64,000 nt of DNA from an uncultured Eubacteriales bacterium (GCA_902789795.1 CADAPM010000019.1:803-64802), one strand, 5' to 3'. Positions 1 to 15,824 are shown, numbered from the stretch's first letter. A program made the numbers and translations. Notes: generated by a model from the letters alone, not told the origin.

Positions 1-274
1 ACATTAAAACTGCTTGAATCAAACAAATACTCTGAATTCTGTGATACGACATGTATTCTGTATACAGACTTCACTAAAGCATTCCCACAATATCAGCATT
101 GTTTTCCTAGCGAATACTCCATTAACTCAATTAAGGCTTAAATACCACATTAGCTCTAGCAAGCAAATATCGGTGACATTTACACATTCACACTTCAACG
201 CTTTCTTTTCACTCTTTTTATACTAGGAAGCTGTTTTCCATTGACGAAACTTCAAAGCACCAACGAAAAACAAT

Positions 275-943
275 CTATAAATCCCAGCCCAAATGTATCA
301 TTTTTCTTTCAAGCTCAGAAATTGAACACTGTTTTTCCATTCTATAAGGAGCAATGCTTAGCTTATATCCGTAGAAATGTAAAAGAACAAATCCTATAAA
401 CTCTGAAAAAGACAATGCATCTTGAAGTGGTATTCTACATGACTCATGATTGGATAATGTTAAATGGGAAATGGCGTGCTTACATTCTATGTGATTTGAC
501 GGATCATAATCAACTCGGATGAACACTGGTACACTTTCTTCATCGGCAAACCAATCTTCATCTTCTGCATCAGCATCAATAATTTCTTTTTTTGTCCAGA
601 TTCTGTTGTGCTTTTTTAGAAATACAAGTCTTTCTTTAGCTATTTCTCCATTGTTAATTAAAAATTCTGCTTGAATAATACCCTTATCATAGAGAAGAAT
701 AGTATATTGGCGCGCCAGTAATAGCGCGTCCATTATACGAGAAGCAGATACATGCTTATCTAACATTATGGAATTAGCACTAGACTTATTGCTAAATGAT
801 ATTTCAAACAAATCTGATCTAAACTTCTTTTCGGAAATACCTGATTCATCTCTTATAAGCCCATTATGGCGCAGTTCATTTATTGTCAGATTAATATCTC
901 GTACTAGTTTTCTTACGAGTGATTCGCTTTTTTGCTTACTCAT
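275..943 (-). CDS. hypothetical protein, translationally coupled partner of the upstream SF1 helicase (possibly DUF2290-like, unverified)
   Basis: 222-aa ORF. Its ATG overlaps the helicase stop by 8 nt (936-943). I recognise no catalytic motif. It has an acidic patch DADAEDEDWFADEE and a His/Cys cluster HIECKHAISHLTLSNHESC. The codon composition is AT-rich like its neighbours. Confidence 0.6.
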   Translation of the reverse strand: MSKQKSESLVRKLVRDINLTINELRHNGLIRDESGISEKKFRSDLFEISFSNKSSANSIMLDKHVSASRIMDALLLARQYTILLYDKGIIQAEFLINNGEIAKERLVFLKKHNRIWTKKEIIDADAEDEDWFADEESVPVFIRVDYDPSNHIECKHAISHLTLSNHESCRIPLQDALSFSEFIGFVLLHFYGYKLSIAPYRMEKQCSISELERKMIHLGWDL

Positions 944-3062
944 TTTCTGACTCCTGAAGAAGTTTTAATAATTCTTCTTTGTCAGCATCAAACAATTGTT
1001 TCATCAATTGGACTTTACTCATACTCCCTTCTTGCGATAATCTGTTGATAAGCTCCTTTGTCTGATCGAAAGCTCTCTTTTCTCTGTCTTCTACATCTCG
1101 ATTATTTAAATAAATAGTTTCTTGTTCTTCTCTGGTTGGATAGTGCTCGAAATACAGCTTAAAGTCATGCTCTTTAATTCTATCAAATTCATCGCATAAG
1201 GCTTGCATGTCTTCCCCATAGCCCAAAACTCTTACCCAGCCTTTTGATCGAGTTATAGCAGTGAAAAGCGCATTTCTATCTGTCCTTCTTTGAATTGTAT
1301 TTACACATCTCTGAGCATTTATAATATAGACCATATAACTTTCATTTCCTTTTGCTCTGCGAACACTGGAATAAACTATTGAATCATCTCTGAAATAGTC
1401 TTCGGGATTGGCCGCTCCCGCTGTGTGAATGTGAAATGCAAAGGCATTCTCTCCATTGCTTTTTCTTTGTTCGTTTACAGAATTTAAATACATTATGAGT
1501 TTGTTATAATTATTTGAATAAGATAATGTGTCCATATCAATAATCATTATGTCTTTTGGCGTGAGTTGTTCTTTTGTGATATCATTAAAAATAATCGCAA
1601 AAAGCTCATCGAACATTTCCTTTGCATCACCAAATCTAGAAACCTTTATAATGTCATTCTTATCAACATTTAGGAAGTCAGGACTGGTATCTTTTGTTCT
1701 ATAAAGCGTTGCTTCTTCTCCTTCACAAATTGGTTTATCAGAAATATATCCAATAGCTGTCCAAACATCTGAAGAACCAGGAAGCTGAACCAATCCTTCT
1801 TTTCGATATAATCCCATTCCAATTGCATGTGCTGTCACAATAACAGGTCCTTGATTTCGGTAACATACTATTAAGGGAGTATCATTTTCGATGCCATGGC
1901 CAAAGATTTCTTCTGGGCTGGGCATTTGTTCCTCATTTAAAGCTTGAAGCTCATCATAGGCATATACTAATCTATTTTCAGGACCAATAATCTTAGTGCA
2001 CAGCTGAAGAAAATTTTTATCAAAGTCTTGTGCTTCGTCAATTAGAATACAATCGTATAGTTTTTTAAAATCACTTATTTCCTTAAGAAGATTCCCACAT
2101 ATTGCAGAGAACAGATTTGTATTCCTTCCATATTTTGCTTTTGCATCGTTTAGTGACAAGGGAGAGACTCCGTGCATAAGACATGTTTCATAGTATACTC
2201 CATGAGAATTTGATGAACCCCATGCTTGCATTATCTTAAGTTTTTTATTATTGTATTTTGCCCCTTCATTTTTATTTGCATAAAATCGACCAATCAGATT
2301 CTCAAGCTGCCCTTTTAATGATCTTGTCGAATAGGTAACAACAATATCCCAATCCGGATGTGCAGTATGTAGTTCTGCGGCTTTTCTAGCTAATACAATT
2401 GTTTTTCCACTACCAGCCATCCCGCGTATTCTTTGAATGCCTTCTACATCTGAGAGGATAGCCTCCATTTGACTGTTTCCATATTTCTCGACAAGTGTTG
2501 CCATTTGATTGATCGCATATGCTTTAGTTCCTTCGTTTATACCTTCACGAACCGAGTGGTTATTAATGCCATATGCTTCTTGAATCCCTGATAAAATCTT
2601 TCCATATAAATCATCAGAGTATTCTTCTGTTTCGGTATACTCTTCAACCAGTTTAATCAAGTCATCGCAAGACTTTGCCAAAAGGTATTCTTCCTGCTCA
2701 GTTATCTGCCCTTCACAATATGTTATCGTTTGAAAATTAAAAATCAACTTTTTTCGTCTGAAAAGGAAGGGCTGTTTTTTAAACTTAGATTCAACTTTTG
2801 CATAAATATCATCTTGAATAGCCCCATAATCGGTTACTGGTTTAGTGAGAATGTTAATTATGTAAACACCTCGTTTTGATATTAAAGCAATATCTACACA
2901 TACTTTACGCCTTGTTTGTTCATCATGATAAATTGGGTACCCAAGATACATTTCTCCTTCAACAGAAGGATAGCGTTCTATAAACCTTTGTGAAAATTCA
3001 GCTGCTATGCCGCGTTTAAATGAATCGGATAGTGATCCTAAAATTCTAAGCTTATTATTCAT
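936..3062 (-). CDS. superfamily-1 (UvrD/COG3972-like) helicase with an N-terminal NERD-like nuclease-fold domain
   Basis: Walker A GMAGSGKT, Walker B ILIDEAQDF, motif IV-like VCYRNQG, and motif VI-like FTAITRSKGWVRV. The N-terminal ~120 aa (VCVDIALISKRGVYIINILTK) resembles NERD/PD-(D/E)xK. The C-terminal tail is charged and coiled-coil-like. Confidence 0.8.
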   Translation of the reverse strand: MNNKLRILGSLSDSFKRGIAAEFSQRFIERYPSVEGEMYLGYPIYHDEQTRRKVCVDIALISKRGVYIINILTKPVTDYGAIQDDIYAKVESKFKKQPFLFRRKKLIFNFQTITYCEGQITEQEEYLLAKSCDDLIKLVEEYTETEEYSDDLYGKILSGIQEAYGINNHSVREGINEGTKAYAINQMATLVEKYGNSQMEAILSDVEGIQRIRGMAGSGKTIVLARKAAELHTAHPDWDIVVTYSTRSLKGQLENLIGRFYANKNEGAKYNNKKLKIMQAWGSSNSHGVYYETCLMHGVSPLSLNDAKAKYGRNTNLFSAICGNLLKEISDFKKLYDCILIDEAQDFDKNFLQLCTKIIGPENRLVYAYDELQALNEEQMPSPEEIFGHGIENDTPLIVCYRNQGPVIVTAHAIGMGLYRKEGLVQLPGSSDVWTAIGYISDKPICEGEEATLYRTKDTSPDFLNVDKNDIIKVSRFGDAKEMFDELFAIIFNDITKEQLTPKDIMIIDMDTLSYSNNYNKLIMYLNSVNEQRKSNGENAFAFHIHTAGAANPEDYFRDDSIVYSSVRRAKGNESYMVYIINAQRCVNTIQRRTDRNALFTAITRSKGWVRVLGYGEDMQALCDEFDRIKEHDFKLYFEHYPTREEQETIYLNNRDVEDREKRAFDQTKELINRLSQEGSMSKVQLMKQLFDADKEELLKLLQESENE

Positions 3063-3139
3063 CTGAATTCCTCTTTTCTTTTTATAACTGCCACTGTCAA
3101 CTACAAATACTTATTATGTTTCAATGCGTTCCTTATATA

Positions 3140-4528
3140 TCACATGATCATCTCCATAAACGTCGCCAATGACACATTTCCCATCTCTTTCCCTTTCTCC
3201 ACACATCCCTTTGTAAATCCGGACTTGGAAAAAAGAAAGAAGCATTTTTTCTGGTAGGCGAAAAGGTTACTACGTTCTATCAGCGTTTCCAGCACGCTGA
3301 GATCAACTTTTTCATTTGTCCACTTGCACTCACCAAAGAGGGCGGTATTCTTATCCTGCTCGCCCATAATGTCAATTTCTGCCTGGCGTTTATGAATGGG
3401 ATCGTTGCCCCACCAGCGGCCCAGGGAAGTGAACTCCACCGGGGATTTTCCGTTCAGCAGCAGCTTCCAGAGGTATTGCTTGCAGATTTCTTCAAACACC
3501 TTGCCCATGTAGTCGGAAAGGTGCGGCTCGATGCGCTGATATACCAGGTCCGCCGCACCGCGGGAGATCAGAGAAGCATTCTCTGGCACAAACCGATACC
3601 AAAAGCGGAACATGTTATCGTCAATATAGTAGATCGCCTTTTTAGACGCTTTCTCCCCGTAAGGCAATTCCTTCTGCACGATGCCCAGCGTGATTAGGTT
3701 TTTCAGGTATGTGGAGCAGACGTTGGTGTCTTCACCAATCTTGCTTGAAATCTCCGACATACGAGATGACCCAGTGGCAATGGCAGTAATGATGGCCGTG
3801 TAGATAGCCGGCTCTCGTACCTCCTGTTTCAGCAGATTCATTGGCTCTTCATAGAGCAAGGAATTAGGATCCAGAAAGGTGCTTTTTATATTTCCCTCAA
3901 TGCTGAGCTTGTCACTTATCTGCAAGAGATATTGCGGTGTGCCACCTACGATTCCATAGGCGAGAGCTTTATCTTCAGCAGAGAAGTTCTTGAAATAACT
4001 GCAAGTTTCTGCAAAATCAAAAGGCAGCAACTTGATCTGTGCTGTTCTTCTGCCATACAAAGGCGCTTTGTAAGCCAGCACATGATCCTCCATATAAGAC
4101 ATAGACGAGCCACATAAGATTAGCATCAGCTTTGAGCGATCCTTGTATTTATCAATCAGAAGTTGTAAGGTGGAAGCAAGACTCTTGGATGCTCGCGCCA
4201 CATAGGGATATTCATCAATCGCCAGGATCAAACGCTCTTTTTCCGACAGTTTGAATACCATCTCCAGGGCACCCTGGAAAGAGAGAAAGGATGTTTCCGC
4301 TTCAAAGCCGCTGGCATACTCAATGATGCTTTTGCTGAAGTTTTCCAGGTTCTGCTTGGCGTTGCTCTCGACACCCATGAAATAAATTGCGGGCTTGTCA
4401 TTAATAAAATGATTGATTAGGGCGGTTTTTCCCACGCGACGGCGACCGTAGAGGACGACAAACTCGAACTTATTAGAGTTATATAATCGGTTCAGGGATG
4501 TGATTTCTCTCTCTCTCCCGATAAACAT
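3140..4528 (-). CDS. AAA+ ATPase (archaeal-ATPase family) with a C-terminal DUF234 nuclease-like domain
   Basis: Walker A GRRRVGKT, Walker B LILAIDEYPY, and C-terminal EIDIMGE...GECKW typical of DUF234. I placed the start at ATG 4528 because the SD GGAGGTG lies 6 nt upstream. The ORF track extends to 4543. Confidence 0.8.
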   Translation of the reverse strand: MFIGREREITSLNRLYNSNKFEFVVLYGRRRVGKTALINHFINDKPAIYFMGVESNAKQNLENFSKSIIEYASGFEAETSFLSFQGALEMVFKLSEKERLILAIDEYPYVARASKSLASTLQLLIDKYKDRSKLMLILCGSSMSYMEDHVLAYKAPLYGRRTAQIKLLPFDFAETCSYFKNFSAEDKALAYGIVGGTPQYLLQISDKLSIEGNIKSTFLDPNSLLYEEPMNLLKQEVREPAIYTAIITAIATGSSRMSEISSKIGEDTNVCSTYLKNLITLGIVQKELPYGEKASKKAIYYIDDNMFRFWYRFVPENASLISRGAADLVYQRIEPHLSDYMGKVFEEICKQYLWKLLLNGKSPVEFTSLGRWWGNDPIHKRQAEIDIMGEQDKNTALFGECKWTNEKVDLSVLETLIERSNLFAYQKKCFFLFSKSGFTKGCVEKGKEMGNVSLATFMEMIM

Positions 4529-4697
4529 GCAAAACACCTCCATTAAAGTTGTCTATAATATATCACTCGGAAACAAATTAGTCAAGTATGATTTGGTAAA
4601 TCTAATTTGACTATTTTCAGTTTAGAGAAGGCAACACAATTATGCATATCTTTGCTTTTCTTGGAGTGTTATGATTAGTGGGCGTTTTTCAATTTTA

Positions 4698-5126
4698 TTA
4701 ACTGCCATTTAGCACACCTTGCAGTTCTTTGATCGCCTCATTGATTCTTCGCTGTGCCTGGCGCTTTGTTACATGAATCATTTGGCATATGGCTTGAACT
4801 GTTTTTCCGTCAAAGTAGCGTTCTATCAAAATCGCTGCATTCTCTGGGCGGATTTGATCCAGCAGTTTAAATGCTTCCCGTTTGCGCTGAAAAATCTCGC
4901 TTGTCTGCTGGTCAATGTCTCTCTGCATATCGGTGATAATTGCAACTGTGTCAGCCATGATTGTGATGTTTTTGGTATGCGAAACATGTACTTGATCCAA
5001 AGAAGGAGAGAGTGTAAGAAGACGGTCTTGTAAGCTTTTTATTTGTTTTATTTTCAATCTGATTCTGGATTCGGCGATCCTAAAATAATCCAGATATTCA
5101 CGAGCATCAATCATTACGTCCTCCAT
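4698..5126 (-). CDS. small sigma-70 region-4-like HTH regulator of mobile elements
   Basis: 142 aa. The C-terminal AILIERYFDGKTVQAICQMIHVTKRQAQRRINEAIKEL matches the region-4 HTH pattern. It is positioned next to the replication-initiator-like gene. Confidence 0.55.
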   Translation of the reverse strand: MEDVMIDAREYLDYFRIAESRIRLKIKQIKSLQDRLLTLSPSLDQVHVSHTKNITIMADTVAIITDMQRDIDQQTSEIFQRKREAFKLLDQIRPENAAILIERYFDGKTVQAICQMIHVTKRQAQRRINEAIKELQGVLNGS

Positions 5127-5164
5127 TTCAATTTCAGCAGAATCAAGTGTTTTGAGCGATACTG

Positions 5165-5359
5165 TTAATGTTCTATTTGATAGTTATCGTGTTCTATTGA
5201 GCTGTTTTCTTCATGTGATAAATGGTGTATAGTTCCTTTTCTTGCAATTTCATACCAAGGTGATTTGCTGTTCCCTTTTTTCAAGTATTCTTCATGTTCG
5301 ATATGTTCCAAAGCAGCACCCGCAGTGGGGTCAGGATATCCTTCGGCGTTCTTGTACAT
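5165..5359 (-). CDS. small hypothetical protein of the mobile-element module
   Basis: 64-aa ORF with the N-terminal motif YPDPTAGAAL. It is tightly packed between the two regulator/replication genes. Confidence 0.4.
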   Translation of the reverse strand: MYKNAEGYPDPTAGAALEHIEHEEYLKKGNSKSPWYEIARKGTIHHLSHEENSSIEHDNYQIEH

Positions 5360-5375
5360 GTTTTATCACCCGCTT

Positions 5376-6245
5376 TCATATTCTCATAAACTCAAGATCC
5401 CGGCGAACTGCTGCACCATAATAACTTTCACAGGTTGCCGGAGCATTGAACAATGTTGTTATCAGATATTGTTTTATGTTCCGTATGTCACTGCCGCATT
5501 TGTGCAGACATTCAAGAACGTACTCAACGATACATGCATTGATCTGGCTGTAGCGAAGTCGTACCAGGTCGGCCGGGTATTTCTTCCCGGATATTGTGAA
5601 ATGGCTGCATTGCGCTGACGCGACTTCAACCATGATTGCAAGAATATCCTCAATTTCGTCTTTATCATTTCTTTCAATCAGATCCCAGTAGTCGATTTGA
5701 TCTTTGATCTGCTGTACCAATGCGGGTAACTGCTGCCCTGTATCATGGTTGGATAGATAGGTACTTGATTGATAAGGATTTGATACATCGTTGATTATTA
5801 AATCTTTACTTGATTGTGTTGGTTTTCCCAATACAGGTTTTTCCTGCGTAGGCAAATCCAATGTTGGATTATCCAATGTTGGACTATTCAACGAGGAAAC
5901 AGTTGGAGGCTTCGAAGGCGTTGTGACAATTGCTTTTTCAGATTCTTTATCTTGTGGAAATTCATAAATCACATACTCTGTATCTGACAATTGACCTGCT
6001 TCATTTCTTTGCCTGGAACGGATAATATAACCGGCATGTACCAATTCATTCACCGCAGAGCGAATTGCGTCAACGCCTTCTTTACTGATATGAGCAAGAC
6101 CGGCAAGCGTATAGTCCCAATCTGCAGGAAGTGAAAGCATGACTGATAACAGGCCTTTTGCTTTTAGCGAAAGCTGAGTATCTCGCAAGTGATGATTGGC
6201 CATAACGGTGTAATTGCTGTTCTTTTGGACCCTCATAACAGGCAT
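5376..6245 (-). CDS. HTH replication-initiator-like protein (DUF6017-type C-terminus) of Clostridia mobile elements
   Basis: The N-terminus MRVQKNSNYTVMANHHLRDTQLSLKAKGLLSVMLSLPADWDYTLAGL and the C-terminus NIKQYLITTLFNAPAT are, from recollection, signatures of this element-borne family. The SD GGAGGAG precedes the ATG. Confidence 0.7.
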   Translation of the reverse strand: MPVMRVQKNSNYTVMANHHLRDTQLSLKAKGLLSVMLSLPADWDYTLAGLAHISKEGVDAIRSAVNELVHAGYIIRSRQRNEAGQLSDTEYVIYEFPQDKESEKAIVTTPSKPPTVSSLNSPTLDNPTLDLPTQEKPVLGKPTQSSKDLIINDVSNPYQSSTYLSNHDTGQQLPALVQQIKDQIDYWDLIERNDKDEIEDILAIMVEVASAQCSHFTISGKKYPADLVRLRYSQINACIVEYVLECLHKCGSDIRNIKQYLITTLFNAPATCESYYGAAVRRDLEFMRI

Positions 6246-6622
6246 AAGGATTCTCCTCCATTTTTTGTATTGATTCAGTTTGGCTTTTCATTTGAGGTTC
6301 TTATGACGAAAATGAGCAAAAAAACAAGCACCCAAGCACGGTATCTTGAATGCTGAAATGTTAAGCGACATAGTTAAGGATATTTTGATTTGATGCGAAT
6401 CAGACTAACTAAAGCAGCGTTTATGCTTTACTTATGAGGAACTATTATCCGGGTTGTATAGCTGATGATAGGTGTGCAAAATCTGTGTTTTGGCATGCTT
6501 TATCTTGCGGTTTGTCGGGATTGCTGATAGAATTAATGCGAATAAACTGATGCTGATGCGGACAAAATGGGTCGCTTTAGTAGTCCGTGTTTCTGGTTTG
6601 GCAACAGAAAGCCTTGCAGGTC

Positions 6623-6643
6623 TATGCCACAGTTTATGCCACA
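6623..6643. repeat. two copies of TATGCCACA spaced 12 bp apart
   Basis: Copies at 6623-6631 and 6635-6643, read directly from the sequence. Confidence 0.7.
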
Positions 6644-6650
6644 ATTGAGA

Positions 6651-6736
6651 TTGATTCTGGTTTATTCTGGTTTTTCGCCATTTACTAAAGTATTTGTGAG
6701 GTGAGATGAAATTGATTCTGATTTATTCCGGTTTAT
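6651..6736. repeat. pair of ~25-bp direct repeats
   Basis: TTGATTCTGGTTTATTCTGGTTTTT (6651-6675) versus TTGATTCTGATTTATTCCGGTTTAT (6712-6736), about 22/25 identical. Confidence 0.7.
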
Positions 6737-6817
6737 CTACAGGGACAGTTTCAAATCCTGCCACCTCGATTTTTTATTTCCCTGTTAAATCAGGGAAATT
6801 CGTCTTTTTTGGAGCGG

Positions 6818-6839
6818 TTATGCCCCAATTATGCCCCAA
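6818..6839. repeat. tandem 11-mer TTATGCCCCAA x2
   Basis: Copies at 6818-6828 and 6829-6839. The core is related to the TATGCCAC repeats at 6623-6643. Confidence 0.7.
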
Positions 6840-6865
6840 TTTTGGTATTTCGATAACACGCGCTG

Positions 6866-7040
6866 TCAAAGTGAGTCCAGAAAGGCTTGCATCCTAGCAG
6901 TACTTTCTTTCTGCATTGTTGCCGTCACATGTGCATAACGGTCTAGTGTAAAAGCCGATGAATAGTGCCCTGCACTGGTTTGAATTGTTTTTACATCATC
7001 CAGGCCCTTCCGAACCTCTGCGAAGAGCGCTAGAAGAAGC
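6866..7040 (-). pseudogene. C-terminal remnant of a tyrosine recombinase/integrase
   Basis: The minus-strand translation is YLLLLALFAEVRKGLDDVKTIQTSAGHYSSAFTLDRYAHVTATMQKESTARMQAFLDSL*. It fits the conserved C-terminal pattern (GH-S...T...YAHV). There is a stop codon immediately upstream, and no RHT box or start codon. Confidence 0.6.
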
Positions 7041-7143
7041 AAGTATTAAAATCATTGAGCATTTTACAAAATAACACAGAGAGAATACAAAATAGCGGAG
7101 TATTCTTGTAAAACCGCCGAAGCCGCACGGCTTAGGAGATGAC

Positions 7144-7797
7144 ATGCGAAAAGAGGATGTTCAACAAAACTATGAGCCATTGCCATTACCCATTGATAAA
7201 CCTTTTGAAAAACTAAGCAAGCAAGAAGCAAAACGGTATTTTGATTGGTTCATATCACATGTGGATGAGCGGTCCGACTATGTGCGCAGCAATGTCGCCG
7301 AATTCTTGGATCTCTCCTTGAATGCCCTTGATTTTTCAATGGAGTCAATAATTCCTGTATGGAAATGGTTTCTGCAGGCTGCAGAAATTCAACCTACTCC
7401 CAAATTGAGACTGAATCAATTGCGAAATGCACTGGTTGCTCGTCACAAGCCGGAGCAATTCATTGATTACATTGTTGAGGCAAATAATAAGGAATTGAGT
7501 TTACTTTCTCTTTACATGATTCGCGATATTGGAATGTACACAGGAAAATCGTTTTTAATGAATTATCCGGTCCTTAAGTGGGGATACCATACCGATACAA
7601 AGAAGGATTCTTTTGCAAATATCCCACAAATATTTGGTTTTGTTAATTATTCTTATAATCCGCCTTTTGAAATGCAGTTTGATCCTATTCATTATGCAGA
7701 AATGGCAGCAGGCAATCTGCTGGTTGGCTCAGCAACGGAGAATGATTTATATGATTTTTGCATGAGATGGGTAAAATGGGTTCCGAATAATAAATGA
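7144..7797 (+). CDS. hypothetical protein (cytosolic, immunity-protein-like flavour only)
   Basis: 217-aa ORF with SD TAGGAGA upstream. I recognise no motif. Confidence 0.55.
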   Translation: MRKEDVQQNYEPLPLPIDKPFEKLSKQEAKRYFDWFISHVDERSDYVRSNVAEFLDLSLNALDFSMESIIPVWKWFLQAAEIQPTPKLRLNQLRNALVARHKPEQFIDYIVEANNKELSLLSLYMIRDIGMYTGKSFLMNYPVLKWGYHTDTKKDSFANIPQIFGFVNYSYNPPFEMQFDPIHYAEMAAGNLLVGSATENDLYDFCMRWVKWVPNNK

Positions 7798-7960
7798 TTC
7801 AGATGAGAATGTAATAGGATTGTGTAAAGGTTGAAGCTTATGAAAAAAGATTGATAATGTTAAGAAAAGATCATCTATTCATATTGTGTATAGCCCGTAA
7901 CACTGATGAATAAGATCAACAGCATCGAAAGCTATCAAAAGAACAATATGGCTTGATTGC

Positions 7961-8329
7961 TTGAAGGAGATCTTCGTTTTGAAAAAGAAGATTACATTGA
8001 TTGCAATTGTCCTGTCGTATTTCTTTGGCGGATTGAATGTATTTGTTTACGAACTCACAAACAGAATCTATTATGGCGCTTATATAGTCGGCGGCATTTT
8101 TCTGTTGATGATACCGATATCCCTCATTGATGATCGGAATAATACGGTATCAAGCAGTGTCGCTCTTATTCTGTTGGTTTTCATTCCGACGTCATTGATG
8201 CTGTTATTGAGTGATACTGGTTTCTGGATCATGATTCTGGGTGAAGTTTTGGTTTATATTCTCTCGATCTGTGCATTTGTTTACACATACCGAAAACCCG
8301 CAAAAGGATATAAGAAGAAGGCGGAATGA
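7961..8329 (+). CDS. small integral membrane protein, hypothetical
   Basis: 122 aa with 3-4 hydrophobic helices and a basic C-terminal tail. The start may be TTG 7979, downstream of the AAGGAGA at 7964-7970. Confidence 0.5.
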   Translation: MKEIFVLKKKITLIAIVLSYFFGGLNVFVYELTNRIYYGAYIVGGIFLLMIPISLIDDRNNTVSSSVALILLVFIPTSLMLLLSDTGFWIMILGEVLVYILSICAFVYTYRKPAKGYKKKAE

Positions 8330-8626
8330 AACGCTTTCCGCAAAAGCGGGATTCATTGGACACAAAATATCATATCCATTGATGAACGCCCAGACTTCGG
8401 GCGTAGTTTATTCGCGTAAGATTAATCCGCAGGAAGAATTGTCTTGCGCTTTTTCCAAGCGCGGATTATACTGCAAGCGGCTCGGGAGGGCCTGTATCAT
8501 CCACACGACAGCTGTAGACGATGAGCAGGATCATCTGCATTCCTTATATGGGACGCTCTGCCCTTGACGGATGATCGCGGCCTAAGTGATCGGCACTCAG
8601 TGACAGCGTGACAGGAGGAACTATCC

Positions 8627-10348
8627 ATGTACATTATCGCAAAAGACGGCACCGGGGATTTTACATCGCTCCAGCAGGCGGTGGACTTTGTGCCGGGCGG
8701 CGGGCAGGCGCCGACGATCCTGCTCGTCCGGCCGGGGGTCTACGAGGAGCGCGTGGTGGTGAATAAGGACAACCTGCGCATCATCGGCGAGGACCGGGAC
8801 CGCACGGTGATCACGGCCCGGGGCTGCGCCAAGGATCTGTACCCCGACGGCACGGAGAAGGGCACCTTTCTCTCCGCGACCTTCCTGGTGGCGGGCGATA
8901 ACGTGGAGGTGGAAAACCTGACCATCCGCAACGACGCGGGGGACGGGCGTCAGGTGGGCCAGGCCGTGGCCGTGTACGCGGCGGGAGACCGGGGCGTCTG
9001 GCGGAACGTGCGCATGATCGCGCACCAGGATACGCTGTTCTGCGGCCCGGTGCAGCAGACGGTACTGGACGAGATCGCGCCGCGGCGGTGCCGGGCGGAG
9101 TTTGCGGAGGCGGTCAACGAGCCTGCCCATACCCAGGGCCGCCAGTATTTTGAGGACTGCTTTATTCAGGGCGACGTGGACTTCATCTTCGGCTCCTACC
9201 GCTGCTGGTTCGAGCGCTGCACCCTGTTCATGAACGCCCGGGGCGGCTACTATACCGCCGCCAACACGCCGGAGGACCAGCCCCACGGCTTCGTGTTCCG
9301 CAACTGCAAGCTGACGGGGGAATGTGAAGCGGGCAAGGCTCTCTTGGGCCGCCCCTGGCGCAGGTTCGCCCGCACCGTGTTCCTGGACTGCGAGATGGAT
9401 GAGTGCGTGGCGCCCCAGGGCTTCTGCGACTGGGACGACATCCGGGTGGTGACCGGGCGCATGGGTGAGTATGGCACTACCGGCGCCCGGGCGGACCAGA
9501 GCGCGCGCCATCCCGCCCAGAAGCGCATCACGGCGGAGGAAGCGGAGGGGATCACCCTGCAGGAGGTGCTGGGCGGCTGGGATCAGTGGCAGCCCGACCG
9601 GCGGGTGCCCACCTGGTTCCTCTGCGGCGACAGCACCATGGCCTATTACGCGCCGGACCGCGCGCCCATGATGGGCTGGGGGCAGAAGCTGCAGACCTGG
9701 CTGAACATGAAGGGGATCCACGAGTACGTGGAGGACTGCGCCGTGAACGGCCGCAGCAGCAAAAGCTTCATCGACGAGCAGCGCTTGGCGCACATCATCC
9801 CCTGCCTGCGGCCGGGGGACAGGATGGTGGTCTGCTTCTCCCACAACGATGAGAAGCCGGATCCCGCCCGCGGCACCACGCCCCACGGCACCTTCCCGGA
9901 ATACATGAGCATGTTCATCGACGCGGCCCTGAAGCACGGGGCGGAGCCGATTCTCTCCACGCCCATCGCCCGCCGGCACTTTAGCGACGAGGGCAGGCTG
10001 ATCCCGACCCACGGGGAGTTCCCGGACGCCATCCGGGACCTGGCTGCGCGCCGGGGCGTGCGGCTGATCGACCTGGAAAAGGCCACCATGCGTCTGGTGC
10101 AGGAGGCGGGGCCGGAGGGCTCCCGGCAGATCTACTGCCATGTGCCCGCCGGCTCGGAGCACTATCCCGACGGCCTCCAGGACAACAGCCACCTGCGGGA
10201 GGAGGGGGCCAGCCGCATCGCCCGCCTGTTCCTGGACCGCTATCTGGATTCCGCCTTCCGGGACGCGGACTTTGACGCCGCGGGGACGGACGACTGCGAC
10301 GACCTGATCGCCCGGGAGGACAGCGTTTACGACAAGGCCCAGCACTGA
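8627..10348 (+). CDS. bifunctional pectin methylesterase (CE8) / SGNH-GDSL esterase (rhamnogalacturonan acetylesterase-like, CE12)
   Basis: The N-terminal half has the pectinesterase motifs GQAVAV, HQDTLF, GDVDFIFG and LGRPW. The C-terminal half has the SGNH blocks FLCGDSTM, GWGQ, NGRSSKSF and DNSHL. SD AGGAGGA lies upstream. Confidence 0.85.
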   Translation: MYIIAKDGTGDFTSLQQAVDFVPGGGQAPTILLVRPGVYEERVVVNKDNLRIIGEDRDRTVITARGCAKDLYPDGTEKGTFLSATFLVAGDNVEVENLTIRNDAGDGRQVGQAVAVYAAGDRGVWRNVRMIAHQDTLFCGPVQQTVLDEIAPRRCRAEFAEAVNEPAHTQGRQYFEDCFIQGDVDFIFGSYRCWFERCTLFMNARGGYYTAANTPEDQPHGFVFRNCKLTGECEAGKALLGRPWRRFARTVFLDCEMDECVAPQGFCDWDDIRVVTGRMGEYGTTGARADQSARHPAQKRITAEEAEGITLQEVLGGWDQWQPDRRVPTWFLCGDSTMAYYAPDRAPMMGWGQKLQTWLNMKGIHEYVEDCAVNGRSSKSFIDEQRLAHIIPCLRPGDRMVVCFSHNDEKPDPARGTTPHGTFPEYMSMFIDAALKHGAEPILSTPIARRHFSDEGRLIPTHGEFPDAIRDLAARRGVRLIDLEKATMRLVQEAGPEGSRQIYCHVPAGSEHYPDGLQDNSHLREEGASRIARLFLDRYLDSAFRDADFDAAGTDDCDDLIAREDSVYDKAQH

Positions 10349-10362
10349 GATTAAAGCATAAC

Positions 10363-10398
10363 AGAGGAGCCGCCGGGCGGCGGCTCCTCTCTTTTCTA
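10363..10398 (+). terminator. intrinsic terminator after the pectinesterase gene
   Basis: 12-bp stem AGAGGAGCCGCC/GGCGGCTCCTCT with loop GGGC, followed by CTTTTCTATT. Confidence 0.7.
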
Positions 10399-10403
10399 TT
10401 GTT

Positions 10404-11810
10404 TCAGTTTACGGCGACGCCGTTCACATACAGGGTGTAGTCGCCCAGCACGTTGTCGATATCGCCCTCAAAGCTGGTCACGTAGGTATCGGCGGTCAGG
10501 GTCCATGTGCTGGTGTCATCCAGGGTCACATTGACGGTGCCCACCTCGGCGGAGACGCTTTCGCCCTTGGCGTTGATGATCCCGCCGCTGACAGTGCCCT
10601 CAAAGGCGCTGCCGTTTTTCAGGTTCAGCTCCAGGGTGGAGTTGCTGCCCACCAGGATCGTGCCGCTGAGCTGCTGGCTGTCGCAGTTCAGGGCGGCGAT
10701 GTTGTCGGCCCCGCTCCAGCCGTCGTCGCACACGGACAGCAGGATGTCGCTGCCCTCGTTGACGAGCTCCACGTCGGTCAGGGTGATGACGGCGTTGGTG
10801 TTGGTCACGTGGAACATGTGGCCGCTCTGGCTGGTCAGGCTGCCGCCGGTCATGGTGAAGGCGCTGGTGCCGCTGTCGGCGTCGCCGCTCATGGACTGGT
10901 AGATCATGATGGTGTCCAGGAAGGTGGCATTGCCGTTCGTTTCGGTGTTGTTGGCGGTCAGATGGCAGTCGGTCAGGGTGATGGAGTTTTTGCCCTCGAT
11001 GCACACGCCCTCGGACAGGTTGCTGATCAGGACGGCGTTGCTGACGGTGATATCCGCCGTGGAATAGATGGCGGGGGAGCCCAGGCCGTTGGTGGTGTAG
11101 GTGCCGCCGTCCACCACCACGGTGCCGCCGCCGCGGTCGGTGCGGATCGCCGCGGAGGAGCGGCCGCTGGTCTCCACGGTCAGGTCGGTGGCATAGGTGA
11201 CGCCGCCGCCGGTGGTCATGATGCCGCCGGAGCCGTCGCCGGTGGTCACGATGGTGGAATCGGAAATGTTCACGATCGTACCGTCGCCGGCTGCGCCGTT
11301 CTGGCCGCCGTTGCCGCCGTAGCTGAACACGCCGTTGGCGCCGTCCGCGTCAGAGGTGATGTTGGCTCCGGTAATGGTGGTGGTGGAGCCGCCCATCACC
11401 AGCAGGGCCGCGTTGAGGCCGTAAAAGTTGCAGTTGTCGCCGCCGTCGGAGTCGCCGGTCTTCGCCACGGTGATGTCCGAGAGGGAGACGGCCTCCGCCG
11501 TATTCACGATCAGGGCGCTGACGTCTGCTGTCGCGGAGACGTAGGCCTCGCCGCTCGCGTCCGCCGCTTCGGTGATCTCGGTGACGGCGCTGTATTCAAA
11601 GGAAGAAGTTCTGCCTCCGGGCGGGGTGCCGCCGCCGAAGCTGCCGTTCGCGCCGCCGGGAGGCGTGCCCCTGCCATCGGGCGGAGCGCCCATGCCGTCA
11701 GGTGGCGTACCCATACCATCGGGAGGCGTACCCATGCCGCCTTCGGCAAACGCCCAGACGGAAGTCAGCGCCATCGTCAGTGCGATCAGCATAGCAAGGA
11801 TCTTCTTCAT
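10404..11810 (-). CDS. secreted right-handed beta-helix repeat protein (pectate-lyase-like / carbohydrate-binding fold) with an N-terminal Pro/Gly repeat linker
   Basis: Start reset to ATG 11810 (SD GGAGGAA, signal peptide MKKILAMLIALTMALTSVWAFAEG). The body is Gly/Thr/Asp-rich with periodic I/V-x-I/V repeats (ITGANITSDADGANG, IVTTGDGSGG, VVVDGGTYTTNG). Confidence 0.6.
   Translation of the reverse strand: MKKILAMLIALTMALTSVWAFAEGGMGTPPDGMGTPPDGMGAPPDGRGTPPGGANGSFGGGTPPGGRTSSFEYSAVTEITEAADASGEAYVSATADVSALIVNTAEAVSLSDITVAKTGDSDGGDNCNFYGLNAALLVMGGSTTTITGANITSDADGANGVFSYGGNGGQNGAAGDGTIVNISDSTIVTTGDGSGGIMTTGGGVTYATDLTVETSGRSSAAIRTDRGGGTVVVDGGTYTTNGLGSPAIYSTADITVSNAVLISNLSEGVCIEGKNSITLTDCHLTANNTETNGNATFLDTIMIYQSMSGDADSGTSAFTMTGGSLTSQSGHMFHVTNTNAVITLTDVELVNEGSDILLSVCDDGWSGADNIAALNCDSQQLSGTILVGSNSTLELNLKNGSAFEGTVSGGIINAKGESVSAEVGTVNVTLDDTSTWTLTADTYVTSFEGDIDNVLGDYTLYVNGVAVN
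11655..11739 (-). repeat. in-frame 24-nt tandem repeat encoding GMGTPPDG x~3.5
   Basis: The protein segment is GMGTPPDGMGTPPDGMGAPPDGRGTPPGG. The DNA copies are visibly repeated with synonymous differences. Confidence 0.75.
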
Positions 11811-11979
11811 CGTAGTTTCCTCCTCATCCAGGGGCTTTCCTGCCCCTGTGGAGGATATTGTAGCTGTAAAGCTTAAAGGAATCTTGAAATTCCTTATTCT
11901 TTTTTTATGGGTTTTGTTATATACTGTTCCTGCAGTTTGATCTCTTTTCACTGCCATCACGTAAGACGATAGGTGGATC

Positions 11980-12756
11980 ATGAAGATCACGATTCTGACG
12001 ATTTTCCCGGAAATGTGCGAGCATGTGCTGTCGTCCAGCATCCTGGGGCGGGCTCGCCAGGCGGGGCTGATCGAGGCCCGGGCGGTGGATATCCGCCCCT
12101 ATTCCAGCCAGAAGCACAAGAATACGGACGATTACCCCTTCGGCGGCGGCCAGGGCATGCTGATGACCGCCCAGCCCATCGCCGACGCCATGAAGGACGT
12201 CTGCGGGCCGGACTTCCACGGGCTGCGCATCTTTATGGGGCCCAAGGGGGAAACGCTTAATCAGAAGCTGGTCGCGGAGCTTTCCCGCGAGCAGGAGCTG
12301 GTGATCCTCTGCGGGCATTACGAGGGCGTGGACCAGCGGGCGCTGGACCACTACATCGACCGGGAGGTCTCCATCGGGGATTACATCCTGACCGGGGGAG
12401 AGCTGGCGGCGCTGGTGCTGACGGACACGGTGGCGCGGCTGATCCCCGGCGTGCTGGGCTCCTCTTCCAGCGCCGTGGACGAGAGCTTTTCCGCCGCCGG
12501 ACTGCTGGAATACCCGCAGTACACCCGGCCCCGGGTCTTTGAGGGCGAGGAGGTGCCGCCGGTGCTGCTGAGCGGCGACCACCGGGCCATCGCCGAATGG
12601 CGGCGGCAGCAGGCGATTCTGGAGACGGCGCGCCTGCGCCCGGACCTGCTCAAGACCGCCGAGCTGACCGGGAAGGAAAAACAGTTTCTGTTAGACCGGG
12701 GCTTTGAGGACGCTGAGGAGCTCGGCAGAACGGAGCGGAATGATGAAGCTGAATGA
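11980..12756 (+). CDS. trmD: tRNA (guanine37-N1)-methyltransferase
   Basis: MKITILTIFPEM..., DDYPFGGGQGMLM, and CGHYEGVDQR...SIGDYILTGGELAA are classic TrmD signatures. Confidence 0.9.
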   Translation: MKITILTIFPEMCEHVLSSSILGRARQAGLIEARAVDIRPYSSQKHKNTDDYPFGGGQGMLMTAQPIADAMKDVCGPDFHGLRIFMGPKGETLNQKLVAELSREQELVILCGHYEGVDQRALDHYIDREVSIGDYILTGGELAALVLTDTVARLIPGVLGSSSSAVDESFSAAGLLEYPQYTRPRVFEGEEVPPVLLSGDHRAIAEWRRQQAILETARLRPDLLKTAELTGKEKQFLLDRGFEDAEELGRTERNDEAE

Positions 12757-15178: not shown

Positions 15179-15193
15179 ATACTGCGGTCATGC

Positions 15194-15236
15194 AAAAACG
15201 GGACTGCCGTACAGCCTGCGGCAGTCCCGTATTTTG
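15194..15236. terminator. bidirectional intrinsic terminator between the beta-mannosidase gene and iorB
   Basis: 11-bp stem CGGGACTGCCG/CGGCAGTCCCG, flanked by an A-run and a T-run. Confidence 0.7.
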
Positions 15237-15250
15237 ATGCTATAGAATGA

Positions 15251-15823
15251 TTATTCCTGCTCGTACCCCAGCGCGAAGGCCTTCAGGTTGATCTCCAGGA
15301 ATTTGGGCGGCACGGTGGCGCGGAGGGTCTCCTCCCACTGCGCGCGGGGGATCGGTGTGTTCTTGGCCAACAGGCCGATCAGCACGACGTTCACGGCCTT
15401 GATGCTGCCGGCCTCCTTCGCCAGCGCCAGGGCGTCCACGGCGGTCACCTTGGCCTGGGCTTTCAGTGTTTCAACGATGCCCTGGGGGTATTCCGCAGCG
15501 CCGGTGATCACCGGCATGGGGTCGATCTGCTGGGTGTTGACGATGATCTGCCCGTCGGGCTTCAGGTAGGGCAGAGCGCGCAGGGCTTCCAGCAGCTCAA
15601 AGGAGAGGATGATGTCCGCGCCGCCCTTTTCGATGATGGGCGACCAGACCTTTTCCCCGAAACGGACGTAGGTGGTCACGCTGCCGCCGCGCTGGCTCAT
15701 GCCGTGCACCTCGGAGACCTTCACGTCATAGCCCGCCTGGGTCAGGGTATTGCCCAGGATGCGGCTGGCCAGCAGGGTGCCCTGGCCGCCGACGCCGACG
15801 ATCATGATGCTCGTGTTGCTCAT
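15251..15823 (-). CDS. iorB: indolepyruvate (arylpyruvate):ferredoxin oxidoreductase, beta subunit
   Basis: 190 aa with IVGVGGQGTLLASRIL and VHGMSQRGGSV. It lies directly downstream of iorA. Confidence 0.85.
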   Translation of the reverse strand: MSNTSIMIVGVGGQGTLLASRILGNTLTQAGYDVKVSEVHGMSQRGGSVTTYVRFGEKVWSPIIEKGGADIILSFELLEALRALPYLKPDGQIIVNTQQIDPMPVITGAAEYPQGIVETLKAQAKVTAVDALALAKEAGSIKAVNVVLIGLLAKNTPIPRAQWEETLRATVPPKFLEINLKAFALGYEQE

Positions 15824-15824
15824 G

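What the first reader, a model, noticed from the sequence alone, without database searches (positions are those of the whole stretch)
275..4543. Three-gene NTPase/nuclease cassette in an AT-rich island: candidate anti-phage defence operon
Three consecutive minus-strand genes form the cassette:
- An AAA+ ATPase fused to a DUF234 nuclease-like domain (GRRRVGKT, DEYPY, EIDIMGE..GECKW).
- An SF1 helicase (GMAGSGKT, LIDEAQDF, CYRN, TRSKG) with a NERD-like N-terminal domain.
- A 222-aa orphan whose ATG overlaps the helicase stop by 8 nt.

The ATPase-helicase gap is 77 bp and has no visible hairpin or U-tract, so co-transcription is plausible. The cassette is cargo of a degraded mobile element in a GC-rich genome, which is the typical setting of defence islands.

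As I recall, a helicase+DUF2290 pair is listed among validated anti-phage systems (Rst_HelicaseDUF2290 in DefenseFinder). I cannot confirm from sequence alone that the 222-aa protein is DUF2290. If it is not, or if the ATPase-DUF234 gene is an obligatory third component, this would be an undescribed architecture.
Basis: partly seen in the sequence, partly recalled or inferred. Interest (0 to 1): 0.8.

Follow-up and report, generated by a model that had tools for sequence, protein, structure and literature searches.

The report
Known helicase–DUF2290 defence pair plus neighbour
The three genes are real, but they are two separate units: a new copy of the already described helicase+DUF2290 anti-phage pair, and next to it a common stand-alone ATPase-nuclease gene that is only a candidate defence gene, so this is not a new three-gene system.

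Summary
The three minus-strand genes exist as described, in a 34-48% GC island inside a ~65% GC genome.

The 222-aa "orphan" is a clear DUF2290 protein. The 708-aa helicase matches the PADLOC helicase model of the Helicase+DUF2290 system over its full length (E 1.9e-171). This pair is the known Rst_HelicaseDUF2290 system (Rousset 2022). The ATPase_2+DUF234 gene matches a different entry, the unvalidated single-gene candidate PDC-S27.

Neighbourhood tests separate the two units:
- In 30 species-level genome loci with a helicase relative, DUF2290 follows directly in 26 of the 28 that can be judged. An ATPase-DUF234 relative is present in none.
- Relatives of the ATPase (85-92% aa) occur alone, or upstream of other cargo.
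- DNA homology breakpoints and GC content (45% vs 35%) also split the cassette into two modules.

The trio does recur as a block in one close sub-lineage with a different downstream flank. The pair module there carries no recognisable promoter, so co-transcription from the ATPase promoter is likely.

The NERD label is not supported by Pfam. DUF2290 gives a confident model with no solved structural relative, so the mechanism remains unknown.

Verdict: an ordinary new member of a known kind, stacked beside a candidate gene. Low interest.

The parts
275..943 (-). DUF2290 gene (222 aa), second gene of the Helicase+DUF2290 pair
   Evidence: Pfam PF10053 70.7 bits, cut-off 25. PADLOC DUF2290 models 4.1e-26 and 2.3e-24. 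It lies directly downstream of the helicase in 26 of 28 evaluable species loci. AF2 model pLDDT 91.9, with no PDB or BFVD structural relative.
936..3062 (-). SF1 UvrD-like helicase (708 aa) with an N-terminal ~165-residue domain of weakly restriction-endonuclease-like fold; first gene of the pair
   Evidence: PADLOC PDLC03002 'Helicase' 1.9e-171, profile positions 11-702 of 707. Pfam UvrD_C_2 and UvrD-helicase. Walker A, Walker B and motif VI are invariant. N-terminal model and Foldseek.
193..3097 (-). Extent of the mobile helicase+DUF2290 module, defined by DNA homology breakpoints
   Evidence: Homology at 93.8% nt to L059/L060 starts at window 3097, 35 nt upstream of the ATG. It ends at window 193 in all six close loci.
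3063..3139 (-). 77-bp spacer between the ATPase and the helicase; RBS AAGAGGA at 3075-3069; no terminator-like site and no acceptable promoter
   Evidence: Sequence read and scan. The spacer is 85.7% conserved in L055/L056. No upstream conservation apart from the RBS in more distant loci.
3140..4528 (-). ATPase_2 + DUF234 gene (462 aa from ATG 4528; longest ORF from 4543) = PADLOC candidate PDC-S27, an independent single-gene unit
   Evidence: Pfam PF01637 99.1 bits and PF03008 100.7 bits. PDLC04984 PDC-S27 1.2e-67. Stand-alone or differently partnered relatives.
4557..4585 (-). Promoter-like site TTGACT-17-TATATT with an extended -10 TG; likely promoter of the ATPase gene and, by read-through, of the pair
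   Evidence: 10 of 12 matches, TG present. It lies inside the stretch 4602/4617..3167 that travels with the ATPase gene in other contexts. This is a consensus match only.
4698..5126 (-). Sigma-70 region 4 / DUF1492 protein of the mobile-element backbone
   Evidence: Pfam DUF1492 3e-6, Sigma70_r4_2 3.2e-5.
5376..6245 (-). HTH_36 + DUF6017 protein of the mobile-element backbone
   Evidence: Pfam DUF6017 1e-23, HTH_36 7e-8. A DUF6017 gene and TnpV also flank a 91%-identical ATPase in L067.
1..8560 (.). Low-GC island (33-48% GC) in a ~65% GC genome; it continues ~640 bp beyond the window's left end
   Evidence: Composition. The identical contig L001 shows GC rising again about 640 bp left of window position 1. 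No integrase, tRNA or flanking repeats.

Best explanation
Window 193-4602 holds two independent units stacked in the cargo end of a small, integrase-less mobile-element remnant.

Unit 1 (193-3097) is a member of the known two-gene Helicase+DUF2290 anti-phage system (Rst_HelicaseDUF2290). It consists of an SF1 UvrD-like helicase with an N-terminal nuclease-like-fold domain, and a translationally coupled DUF2290 protein with an 8-nt overlap.

Unit 2 (3140-4602) is an ATPase_2+DUF234 gene with its own promoter. DUF234 is a PD-(D/E)xK-type nuclease domain. The gene corresponds to the unvalidated single-gene PADLOC candidate PDC-S27.

Shown here: family membership of all three proteins; conserved pairing of the helicase with DUF2290; no conserved link to the ATPase; different module boundaries and GC content.

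Inferred: in this island the pair has no promoter of its own and is read through from the ATPase promoter. The three genes would then form one transcript without being one machine.

Inferred mechanism, not shown for any member of the family: the helicase and DUF2290 form a stoichiometric complex. The ATP-driven SF1 motor surveys or loads on phage DNA ends or replication intermediates. DUF2290 acts as the partner, either regulator or effector, that turns this recognition into a block of phage replication. DUF2290 presents an invariant polar cluster on adjacent beta-strands: Q91, E93, K103, R105, R143, D145, H156, H160, N165, C169, R170.

The ATPase-DUF234 protein would act separately as an NTP-dependent nuclease.
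For: Family assignment:
- Pfam DUF2290 70.7 bits.
- PADLOC DUF2290 4.1e-26, Helicase PDLC03002 1.9e-171 over its full length, PDC-S27 1.2e-67.

Pairing:
- 30 species-level genome loci hold a helicase relative of 43-70% identity.
- 26 have DUF2290 directly downstream, 2 are cut by a contig end, and 2 lack it.
- The same 8-nt overlap occurs in 79-80%-identical relatives that lie beside BREX, RnlAB and DarTG.
- An E. coli IncI plasmid and an Acinetobacter plasmid carry the annotated pair at 33-35% identity.

No third gene:
- No ATPase-DUF234 relative in the 30 loci, even at phmmer E<=1. 25 of the 30 have at least 1.5 kb of upstream sequence.
- No Pfam family occurs in more than 3 of the 91 upstream ORFs scanned.

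ATPase independence:
- An 85%-identical relative lies between aroQ and bacA.
- 91-92%-identical relatives lie at the edge of a TnpV/DUF6017 element with no cargo, before a 336-338-aa gene, or before a Druantia-like block.

Module boundaries:
- ATPase homology spans window 4602/4617 to 3167/3174.
- Pair homology spans 3097 to 193.
- GC is about 45% for the ATPase gene and about 35% for the pair.
- Divergence from L055 is discordant: 85.5% nt for the ATPase, 94-96% for the pair.

Experimental basis for the family:
- A helicase+DUF2290 system from a P4 hotspot specifically inhibits T7 (PMC9122126).
- Deleting the system in P. aeruginosa MPAO1 gave phage-specific effects (bioRxiv 10.64898/2026.09.16.752016).
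- DUF234 is listed in the PD-(D/E)XK superfamily (PMC3424549).
Against: The trio does recur. Contigs L055-L058 carry ATPase, the 77-bp gap, helicase and DUF2290 with a different downstream flank. Linkage has therefore persisted over 6-15% nucleotide divergence. The pair module lacks a recognisable promoter, so some functional dependence on the ATPase gene in this sub-lineage is not excluded.

No anti-phage activity has been shown for this copy. A lactococcal DUF2290/helicase homologue gave no protection against the phages tested (PMC11381338).

PDC-S27 has never been validated (PMC12988326).

The mechanism is inference only. The role of the helicase in this system was 'not explored' (PMC10952713). 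DUF2290 has no structural relative in PDB or BFVD. The N-terminal domain lacks a canonical (D/E)xK on its third strand.
Confidence: 0.8

Rival explanations
1. The three genes form one functional three-component defence system. The ATPase-DUF234 protein acts as sensor or nuclease together with the helicase and DUF2290. This would be an undescribed architecture.
For: All three genes are on the same strand. The 77-bp gap has no terminator-like site. The pair module starts only 35 nt upstream of the helicase ATG and carries no promoter. The same ATPase-gap-helicase-DUF2290 block occurs in a second context, L055-L058.
Against: None of 30 species-level loci and neither of the 2 annotated plasmids has the ATPase. 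A 94%-identical pair exists without it (L059/L060). Close ATPase relatives occur alone or with unrelated cargo. GC content and divergence are discordant between the two units. The validated system is described as two genes (PMC9122126).
Confidence: 0.07
2. The helicase+DUF2290 pair in this element does not defend against phage. It serves the mobile element itself, for example in replication, stability or exclusion of competing plasmids and elements.
For: Relatives sit on small plasmids beside replication, stability and toxin-antitoxin genes. The lactococcal homologue gave no protection against the phages tested (PMC11381338). Only one viral contig and no GenBank phage carries a relative.
Against: There is experimental anti-T7 activity for the family (PMC9122126). 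Deletion in PAO1 gave phage-specific effects. The closest relatives lie among BREX, RnlAB, DarTG, PLD-helicase and type I RM genes, which is a defence-island setting.
Confidence: 0.08
3. The ATPase-DUF234 gene is not a defence gene at all. It is a general DNA-processing or mobile-element gene that happens to lie upstream and lends its promoter to the pair.
For: PDC-S27 rests on embedding in defence regions and has no experimental validation (PMC12988326). The family is very large: all 8000 scored candidates pass E 1e-10. An 85%-identical copy lies between shikimate-pathway genes and bacA. Another lies at the edge of a TnpV/DUF6017 element with no defence genes downstream.
Against: Several close copies lie next to defence genes: a Druantia-like block, DUF87+SIR2_2, T5orf172, a type I RM S subunit, and Helicase+DUF2290. 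The Walker A, Walker B and D..ExK motifs are intact, as expected for an active NTP-dependent nuclease.
Confidence: 0.25

Closest known systems
Rst_HelicaseDUF2290 (Helicase+DUF2290 system; Rousset et al. 2022, PMC9122126)
   Same: Two co-directional genes: an SF1 UvrD-like helicase of about 700 aa followed by a DUF2290 protein of about 220 aa. Both match the PADLOC profiles for this system, the helicase over its full length. The pair is carried on a mobile element or defence island.
   Different: Helicase identity is only 33-35% to the proteobacterial plasmid copies examined. The host is a GC-rich genome carrying a low-GC, Clostridia-type element rather than a P4 satellite. This copy lacks its own promoter region and abuts an ATPase-DUF234 gene. 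It is untested experimentally.
PDC-S27 (PADLOC phage-defence candidate, single gene)
   Same: ATPase_2 (PF01637) + DUF234 (PF03008) architecture. Match to PDLC04984 at 1.2e-67 over profile positions 3-440 of 474. Relatives occur as a stand-alone gene.
   Different: Here and in L055-L058 the gene lies directly upstream of another defence pair and is probably co-transcribed with it. The candidate itself has no validated function.
Gabija (GajA OLD-family nuclease + GajB UvrD-like helicase)
   Same: A UvrD-like SF1 helicase paired with a second protein. There are weak GajB profile hits (2.6e-6 to 1.9e-4). It is a plausible analogy for helicase sensing of DNA ends (PMC10952713).
   Different: There is no GajA/OLD/TOPRIM partner. 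The GajB hits are partial and about 165 orders of magnitude weaker than the hit to the Helicase+DUF2290 model. The N-terminal domain differs.
Hachiman (HamA nuclease + HamB helicase; PMC12278908)
   Same: A two-gene helicase-plus-partner logic, in which the helicase restrains or licenses an effector. This serves as a working model for the mechanism.
   Different: HamB is an SF2 helicase and HamA a DUF1837 nuclease. DUF2290 shows no structural similarity to any solved nuclease. No sequence relationship was found.
NERD+UvrD candidate (PADLOC C3a187) and the NERD domain PF08378
   Same: The helicase core matches C3a187 at 3.4e-17. The N-terminal model has a weak resemblance to PD-(D/E)xK nucleases.
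   Different: The C3a187 match covers residues 197-610 only, not the N-terminal domain. There is no Pfam NERD hit at E<=10. The third-strand (D/E)xK position reads N70-I-L72.

Membership tests
Rst_HelicaseDUF2290 | Helicase matching the system's helicase profile | tested here: met
   PADLOC PDLC03002 1.9e-171, 569.8 bits, residues 17-700 on profile 11-702 of 707.
Rst_HelicaseDUF2290 | Partner protein with a DUF2290 (PF10053) domain | tested here: met
   Pfam 70.7 bits against a gathering cut-off of 25. PADLOC DUF2290 models 4.1e-26 and 2.3e-24.
Rst_HelicaseDUF2290 | The two genes are adjacent and co-directional | tested here: met
   8-nt overlap at 936-943. The same arrangement occurs in 26 of 28 evaluable species loci and in close relatives.
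Rst_HelicaseDUF2290 | Intact NTPase/helicase motifs | tested here: met
   GMAGSGKT, LIDEAQDF, CYRN and TRSKG are present and invariant in the alignment.
Rst_HelicaseDUF2290 | Protection against phage (T7 in the original report) | not testable with these tools
   This needs cloning and phage challenge. Literature basis: PMC9122126. A negative result exists for a lactococcal homologue.
PDC-S27 (PADLOC candidate) | Match to the PDC-S27 profile with ATPase_2 + DUF234 architecture | tested here: met
   PDLC04984 1.2e-67, residues 6-434 on profile 3-440 of 474. PF01637 99.1 bits and PF03008 100.7 bits.
PDC-S27 (PADLOC candidate) | Functions as a single-gene unit | tested here: inconclusive
   Close relatives occur alone or with unrelated neighbours, which fits a self-contained gene. 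Function as such has never been shown.
NERD domain (PF08378) at the helicase N-terminus | Match to the Pfam NERD profile | tested here: not met
   Residues 1-200 give no Pfam family even at E<=10. No NERD hit for the whole protein either.
NERD domain (PF08378) at the helicase N-terminus | PD-(D/E)xK fold with catalytic D ... (D/E)xK | tested here: inconclusive
   The AF2 model has pLDDT 82. The best Foldseek hits are mostly PD-(D/E)xK nucleases (Bax1, R.BspD6I, MunI, Can2/Card1). However, no hit reaches E<=0.001 (best 4.4e-3) and TM is at most 0.42. D57 is invariant, but the third-strand position is N70-I-L72.
Gabija | GajA (OLD/TOPRIM nuclease) partner next to the UvrD-like helicase | tested here: not met
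   No GajA hit for any neighbouring protein. Only weak partial GajB hits for the helicase.
   None of 30 species loci has the ATPase, nor do the 2 plasmids, L040-L044 or L059/L060. The trio is seen only in the window's own element (L001, L002) and in one close sub-lineage, L055-L058.

The most novel reading that the evidence does not exclude
In a sub-lineage of gut or rumen Clostridia-type elements, the ATPase-DUF234 (PDC-S27-like) gene is more than a neighbour. It would be the conserved, promoter-bearing head of a cargo slot into which different promoter-less defence modules are swapped, just at its 3' end. The modules seen so far are Helicase+DUF2290, a Druantia-like block and a 336-338-aa gene. 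The ATPase-nuclease might act as a common upstream sensor or regulator for them. This would make it a modular 'driver plus interchangeable effector' arrangement, and the trio would then be functionally three-component in this lineage.
Probability: 0.1. Interest if true: 0.55.

Novelty: new member of a known kind. Interest (0 to 1): 0.18.

Why it matters
The 222-aa protein is DUF2290, so the pair is a described defence system. The ATPase-DUF234 gene is a separate, already catalogued candidate rather than a third subunit.

The remaining value is modest:
- The window adds a divergent Firmicutes-type member of Helicase+DUF2290, a system whose mechanism is still unknown.
- DUF2290 folds confidently into something with no solved relative.
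- The window gives a natural case of two defence (or candidate) units sharing one promoter.

None of this would surprise a specialist in defence islands.

Tried and rejected
1. NERD assignment. I ran Pfam on helicase residues 1-200 at E<=10 and found nothing. The structure route gave only weak, sub-threshold resemblance to PD-(D/E)xK nucleases. I therefore call the domain nuclease-like in fold at most, not NERD.

2. DUF2290 as a PD-(D/E)xK nuclease, suggested by 'D..ECK' at residues 145-155. Rejected. K155 is not conserved. The confident model has no PDB or BFVD match at E<0.1 and TM is at most 0.32. The profile against PDB sequences found nothing.

3. Own promoter for the helicase. TTGACA at 3100-3095 has no acceptable -10 at 16-18 nt. 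No upstream conservation in 8 other loci. An internal promoter-like site at 3375-3347 overlaps the conserved EIDIMGE codons and may be a coincidence.

4. att sites, tRNA or integrase to delimit the island. None found in L001.

5. Metagenome scan for the ATPase-helicase junction with a 17-mer. All 120 stretches returned were chance matches with no homology to the cassette.

6. Phage origin. There was no tblastn hit in 50,697 GenBank phage records and only one IMG/VR contig.

7. A solved structure for the helicase family. The profile search of PDB sequences found nothing at E<=0.001. For the ATPase, only a distant Walker-type ATPase, 2qen, at 1.4e-8.

Full report
**1. Observation**

The ORF list shows three consecutive minus-strand ORFs:
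- 275-943, 222 aa.
- 936-3062, 708 aa.
- 3140-4543, 467 aa.

The ATG of the 222-aa gene overlaps the helicase stop by 8 nt. The ATPase-helicase gap is 77 bp.

GC is 33-48% across window 1-8500 and 57-69% from 8500 to 16000. The consensus scan reports no terminator-like site on the minus strand in the gap. It does report a strong promoter-like site upstream of the ATPase gene: TTGACT-17-TATATT with a TG, at 4585-4557.

One correction concerns the ATPase start. A GGAGG at 4541-4537 precedes a second ATG at 4528. Gene callers on identical metagenome contigs give 462 aa. The ATPase therefore most likely starts at 4528.

**2. What the three proteins are**

- The 222-aa protein is DUF2290. Pfam gives 70.7 bits against a cut-off of 25.
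- The 708-aa protein has UvrD-type helicase domains.
- The 462-aa protein is ATPase_2 plus DUF234.

PADLOC sharpens this:
- The helicase matches the 'Helicase' model PDLC03002 at 1.9e-171 over 11-702 of 707 profile positions.
- The 222-aa protein matches both DUF2290 models (4.1e-26, 2.3e-24).
- The ATPase matches a different entry, PDC-S27 (1.2e-67).

NCBIfam adds only a sub-threshold relation of the helicase to the STM2767 helicase family.

The literature in the library says the following:
- Helicase+DUF2290 was found in the P4 satellite hotspot and specifically inhibits T7 (PMC9122126).
- The role of its helicase 'was not explored' (PMC10952713).
- DefenseFinder lists the system as 'Rst Helicase+DUF2290' (PMC12278908).
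- A lactococcal homologue gave no protection against the phages tested (PMC11381338).
- Deletion in P. aeruginosa MPAO1 gave phage-specific effects (bioRxiv 10.64898/2026.09.16.752016).
- PDC-S27 is a common single-gene candidate that awaits validation (PMC12988326).
- DUF234 is classed in the PD-(D/E)XK superfamily (PMC3424549).

**3. Is the ATPase a third component?**

I ran three independent tests.

(a) Starting from the helicase.
- The helicase family is large: 3896 hits at E<=1e-10 among the 8000 candidates scored.
- A scan of one genome per species returned 30 true relatives at 43-70% identity. They come from Lachnospiraceae, other Clostridia, Erysipelotrichaceae, Bacilli, a Bacillus and a Treponema MAG.
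- Six-frame ORFs searched with phmmer show DUF2290 directly downstream in 26 loci. Two more are cut by a contig end, and two lack it.
- No ATPase-DUF234 relative was found in any of the 30, even at E<=1. 25 of them have at least 1.5 kb of upstream sequence.
- A Pfam scan of 91 upstream ORFs found no family in more than three of them.
- Relatives at 79-80% identity carry the same 8-nt overlap with DUF2290. They lie next to BREX, RnlAB and DarTG genes, without the ATPase.
- Plasmids from E. coli and Acinetobacter carry the annotated pair alone, at 33-35% identity.

(b) Starting from the ATPase.
- This family is even larger: all 8000 scored candidates pass 1e-10.
- An 85%-identical copy sits between aroQ and bacA.
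- 91-92%-identical copies occur in three other settings:
  - At the edge of a TnpV/DUF6017 element, followed by host glycosidase genes.
  - Before a 336-338-aa gene, in a region with DUF87+SIR2_2, T5orf172 and a type I RM S subunit.
  - Before a 519/921/336/1748-aa block. Its last gene has DEAD/Helicase_C/MZB domains and its 336-aa gene weakly matches DruD, so the block is Druantia-like.

(c) DNA breakpoints.
- The ATPase homology runs from window 4602/4617 to 3167/3174. It includes the promoter-like site and decays within the last 30 nt of the ORF.
- The pair's homology runs from 3097 to 193.
- GC is about 45% in the ATPase gene and about 35% in the pair.

**4. A complication**

The helicases more than 90% identical to the window's copy tell a more nuanced story.
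- Contigs L055-L058 carry an ATPase fragment, the same 77-bp gap, the helicase and DUF2290. Their downstream flank differs from the window's: a PLDc_2/DEAD/DUF3427 protein, SLFN_AlbA_2 and HsdR.
- The trio has therefore moved or persisted as a block in at least two contexts.
- Divergence from the window is discordant: ATPase 85.5% nt, gap 85.7%, helicase 94.1%, DUF2290 96.2%. The L055 ATPase is closer in protein sequence to the copy that precedes the Druantia-like block (95%) than to the window's copy (91%).
- Contigs L059/L060 carry the same pair at 93.8%. Their homology begins 35 nt upstream of the ATG, and the upstream neighbour is an HTH transposase-like gene instead of the ATPase.

From this I conclude three things. 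The pair module carries only its RBS and no promoter. In the window it is most likely transcribed from the ATPase promoter. The linkage is local and dispensable.

**5. Structure and mechanism**

DUF2290:
- It gives a confident AF2 model: pLDDT 91.9, pTM 0.89, built from 55 sequences.
- The model has no match in PDB or BFVD. The best E-values are 0.12 and 0.56, and TM is at most 0.32.
- A profile search of PDB sequences finds nothing.
- The invariant residues are D62, Q91, E93, K103, R105, R143, D145, H156, H160, T162, N165, C169, R170 and P172. K155 of the apparent 'ECK' is not conserved. A canonical PD-(D/E)xK site is therefore unlikely.

Helicase N-terminus (residues 1-165):
- It models as an alpha/beta domain with pLDDT 82.
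- Its best Foldseek hits are mostly restriction-endonuclease-fold proteins such as Bax1, R.BspD6I, MunI and Can2/Card1. All are below the usual significance level: best E 4.4e-3, TM at most 0.42.
- D57 is invariant, but the third strand reads N70-I-L72 where (D/E)xK would be expected.
- Pfam NERD does not match.

The mechanism I commit to is inference. It draws on the conserved translational coupling, on the helicase motifs, and on analogy with Gabija and Hachiman. The proposal has three steps:
1. The helicase and DUF2290 form a complex.
2. The SF1 motor recognises phage DNA ends or replication intermediates.
3. DUF2290 acts as regulator or effector.

The ATPase-DUF234 protein would act separately as an NTP-dependent nuclease, if it is a defence protein at all.

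**6. Setting**

- The island also holds a sigma-70 region 4/DUF1492 gene and an HTH_36+DUF6017 gene, plus two ORFs with no family hit.
- The identical contig L001 shows that the island continues about 640 bp left of the window. That stretch holds a convergent gene for a 223-242-aa two-TM protein, whose last 141 nt are window 1-141.
- I found no integrase, tRNA or flanking repeats. This is consistent with a degraded element.

**7. Verdict**

It is defence-related, and the recalled Helicase+DUF2290 identity is correct, but it is not a three-gene system.
- It is a new member of a known kind, placed next to a catalogued candidate gene.
- Interest is low.

The most novel reading not excluded is that this ATPase-DUF234 sub-lineage heads a cargo slot for interchangeable, promoter-less defence modules and cooperates with them. 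I put that at about 0.1.

Noticed in passing
L018:8529-12034 and L019:8519-12043: These are the two helicase relatives (53-54% identity) that lack a DUF2290 gene. Each instead has a PIN_8 (PIN-like) protein directly upstream of the helicase: 470 aa in L019, and split into 164+295 aa in L018. This may be a variant in which a PIN-like protein replaces DUF2290 as partner.
   Followed up: partly
L045, L047-L050, L062-L066, L067-L071 (ATPase gene at about 7001-8401 in each): ATPase-DUF234 copies 91-92% identical in protein to the window's are followed by different things: a 336-338-aa gene, a Druantia-like 519/921/336/1748-aa block, or nothing. Homology breaks within the last ~30 nt of the ATPase ORF. 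This looks like a cargo-swapping hotspot at the 3' end of this gene.
   Followed up: partly
window 6646-6676 and 6707-6737: Two 31-nt direct repeats, 87% identical, lie 61 bp apart in the intergenic region upstream of the HTH_36/DUF6017 gene. They could be iteron- or operator-like sites of the mobile element.
   Followed up: no
window 1-141 (+ strand); full gene in L001:12922-13650 (-): This is the 3' end of a convergent gene for a 223-242-aa protein with two predicted N-terminal membrane helices. It has no PADLOC hit and its function is unknown. It belongs to the low-GC island.
   Followed up: partly
window 275-943: DUF2290 gives a high-confidence model (pLDDT 91.9) with no structural relative in PDB or BFVD. 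A cluster of invariant D, H, C and R residues (145-172) suggests a metal or active site of an unclassified kind.
   Followed up: partly
L059:984-2107 versus window 3097: In a 94%-identical copy of the pair, an HTH transposase-like gene (337 aa) plus a 36-aa ORF abut the helicase. Homology to the window starts 35 nt upstream of the ATG. A DDE transposase lies downstream, so IS activity appears to have remodelled this locus.
   Followed up: partly
window 3347-3375 (- strand): A promoter-like site, TTGACA-17-AAGAAT (10 of 12), lies inside the ATPase ORF about 285 nt upstream of the helicase ATG. Its -35 hexamer overlaps the codons of the conserved EIDIMGE nuclease motif. It could be an internal promoter for the pair or a coincidence.
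   Followed up: no
window 7144-7797 (+) and 7961-8329 (+): Two island ORFs, of 217 aa and of 122 aa (hydrophobic), have no Pfam, NCBIfam or PADLOC match.
   Followed up: partly
window 8627-10348 (+): The first high-GC host gene beside the island encodes a pectinesterase + GDSL-lipase fusion (Pfam annotation on the identical contig L001). The neighbouring genes are glycoside hydrolases and trmD, which suggests a polysaccharide-degrading host.
   Followed up: no
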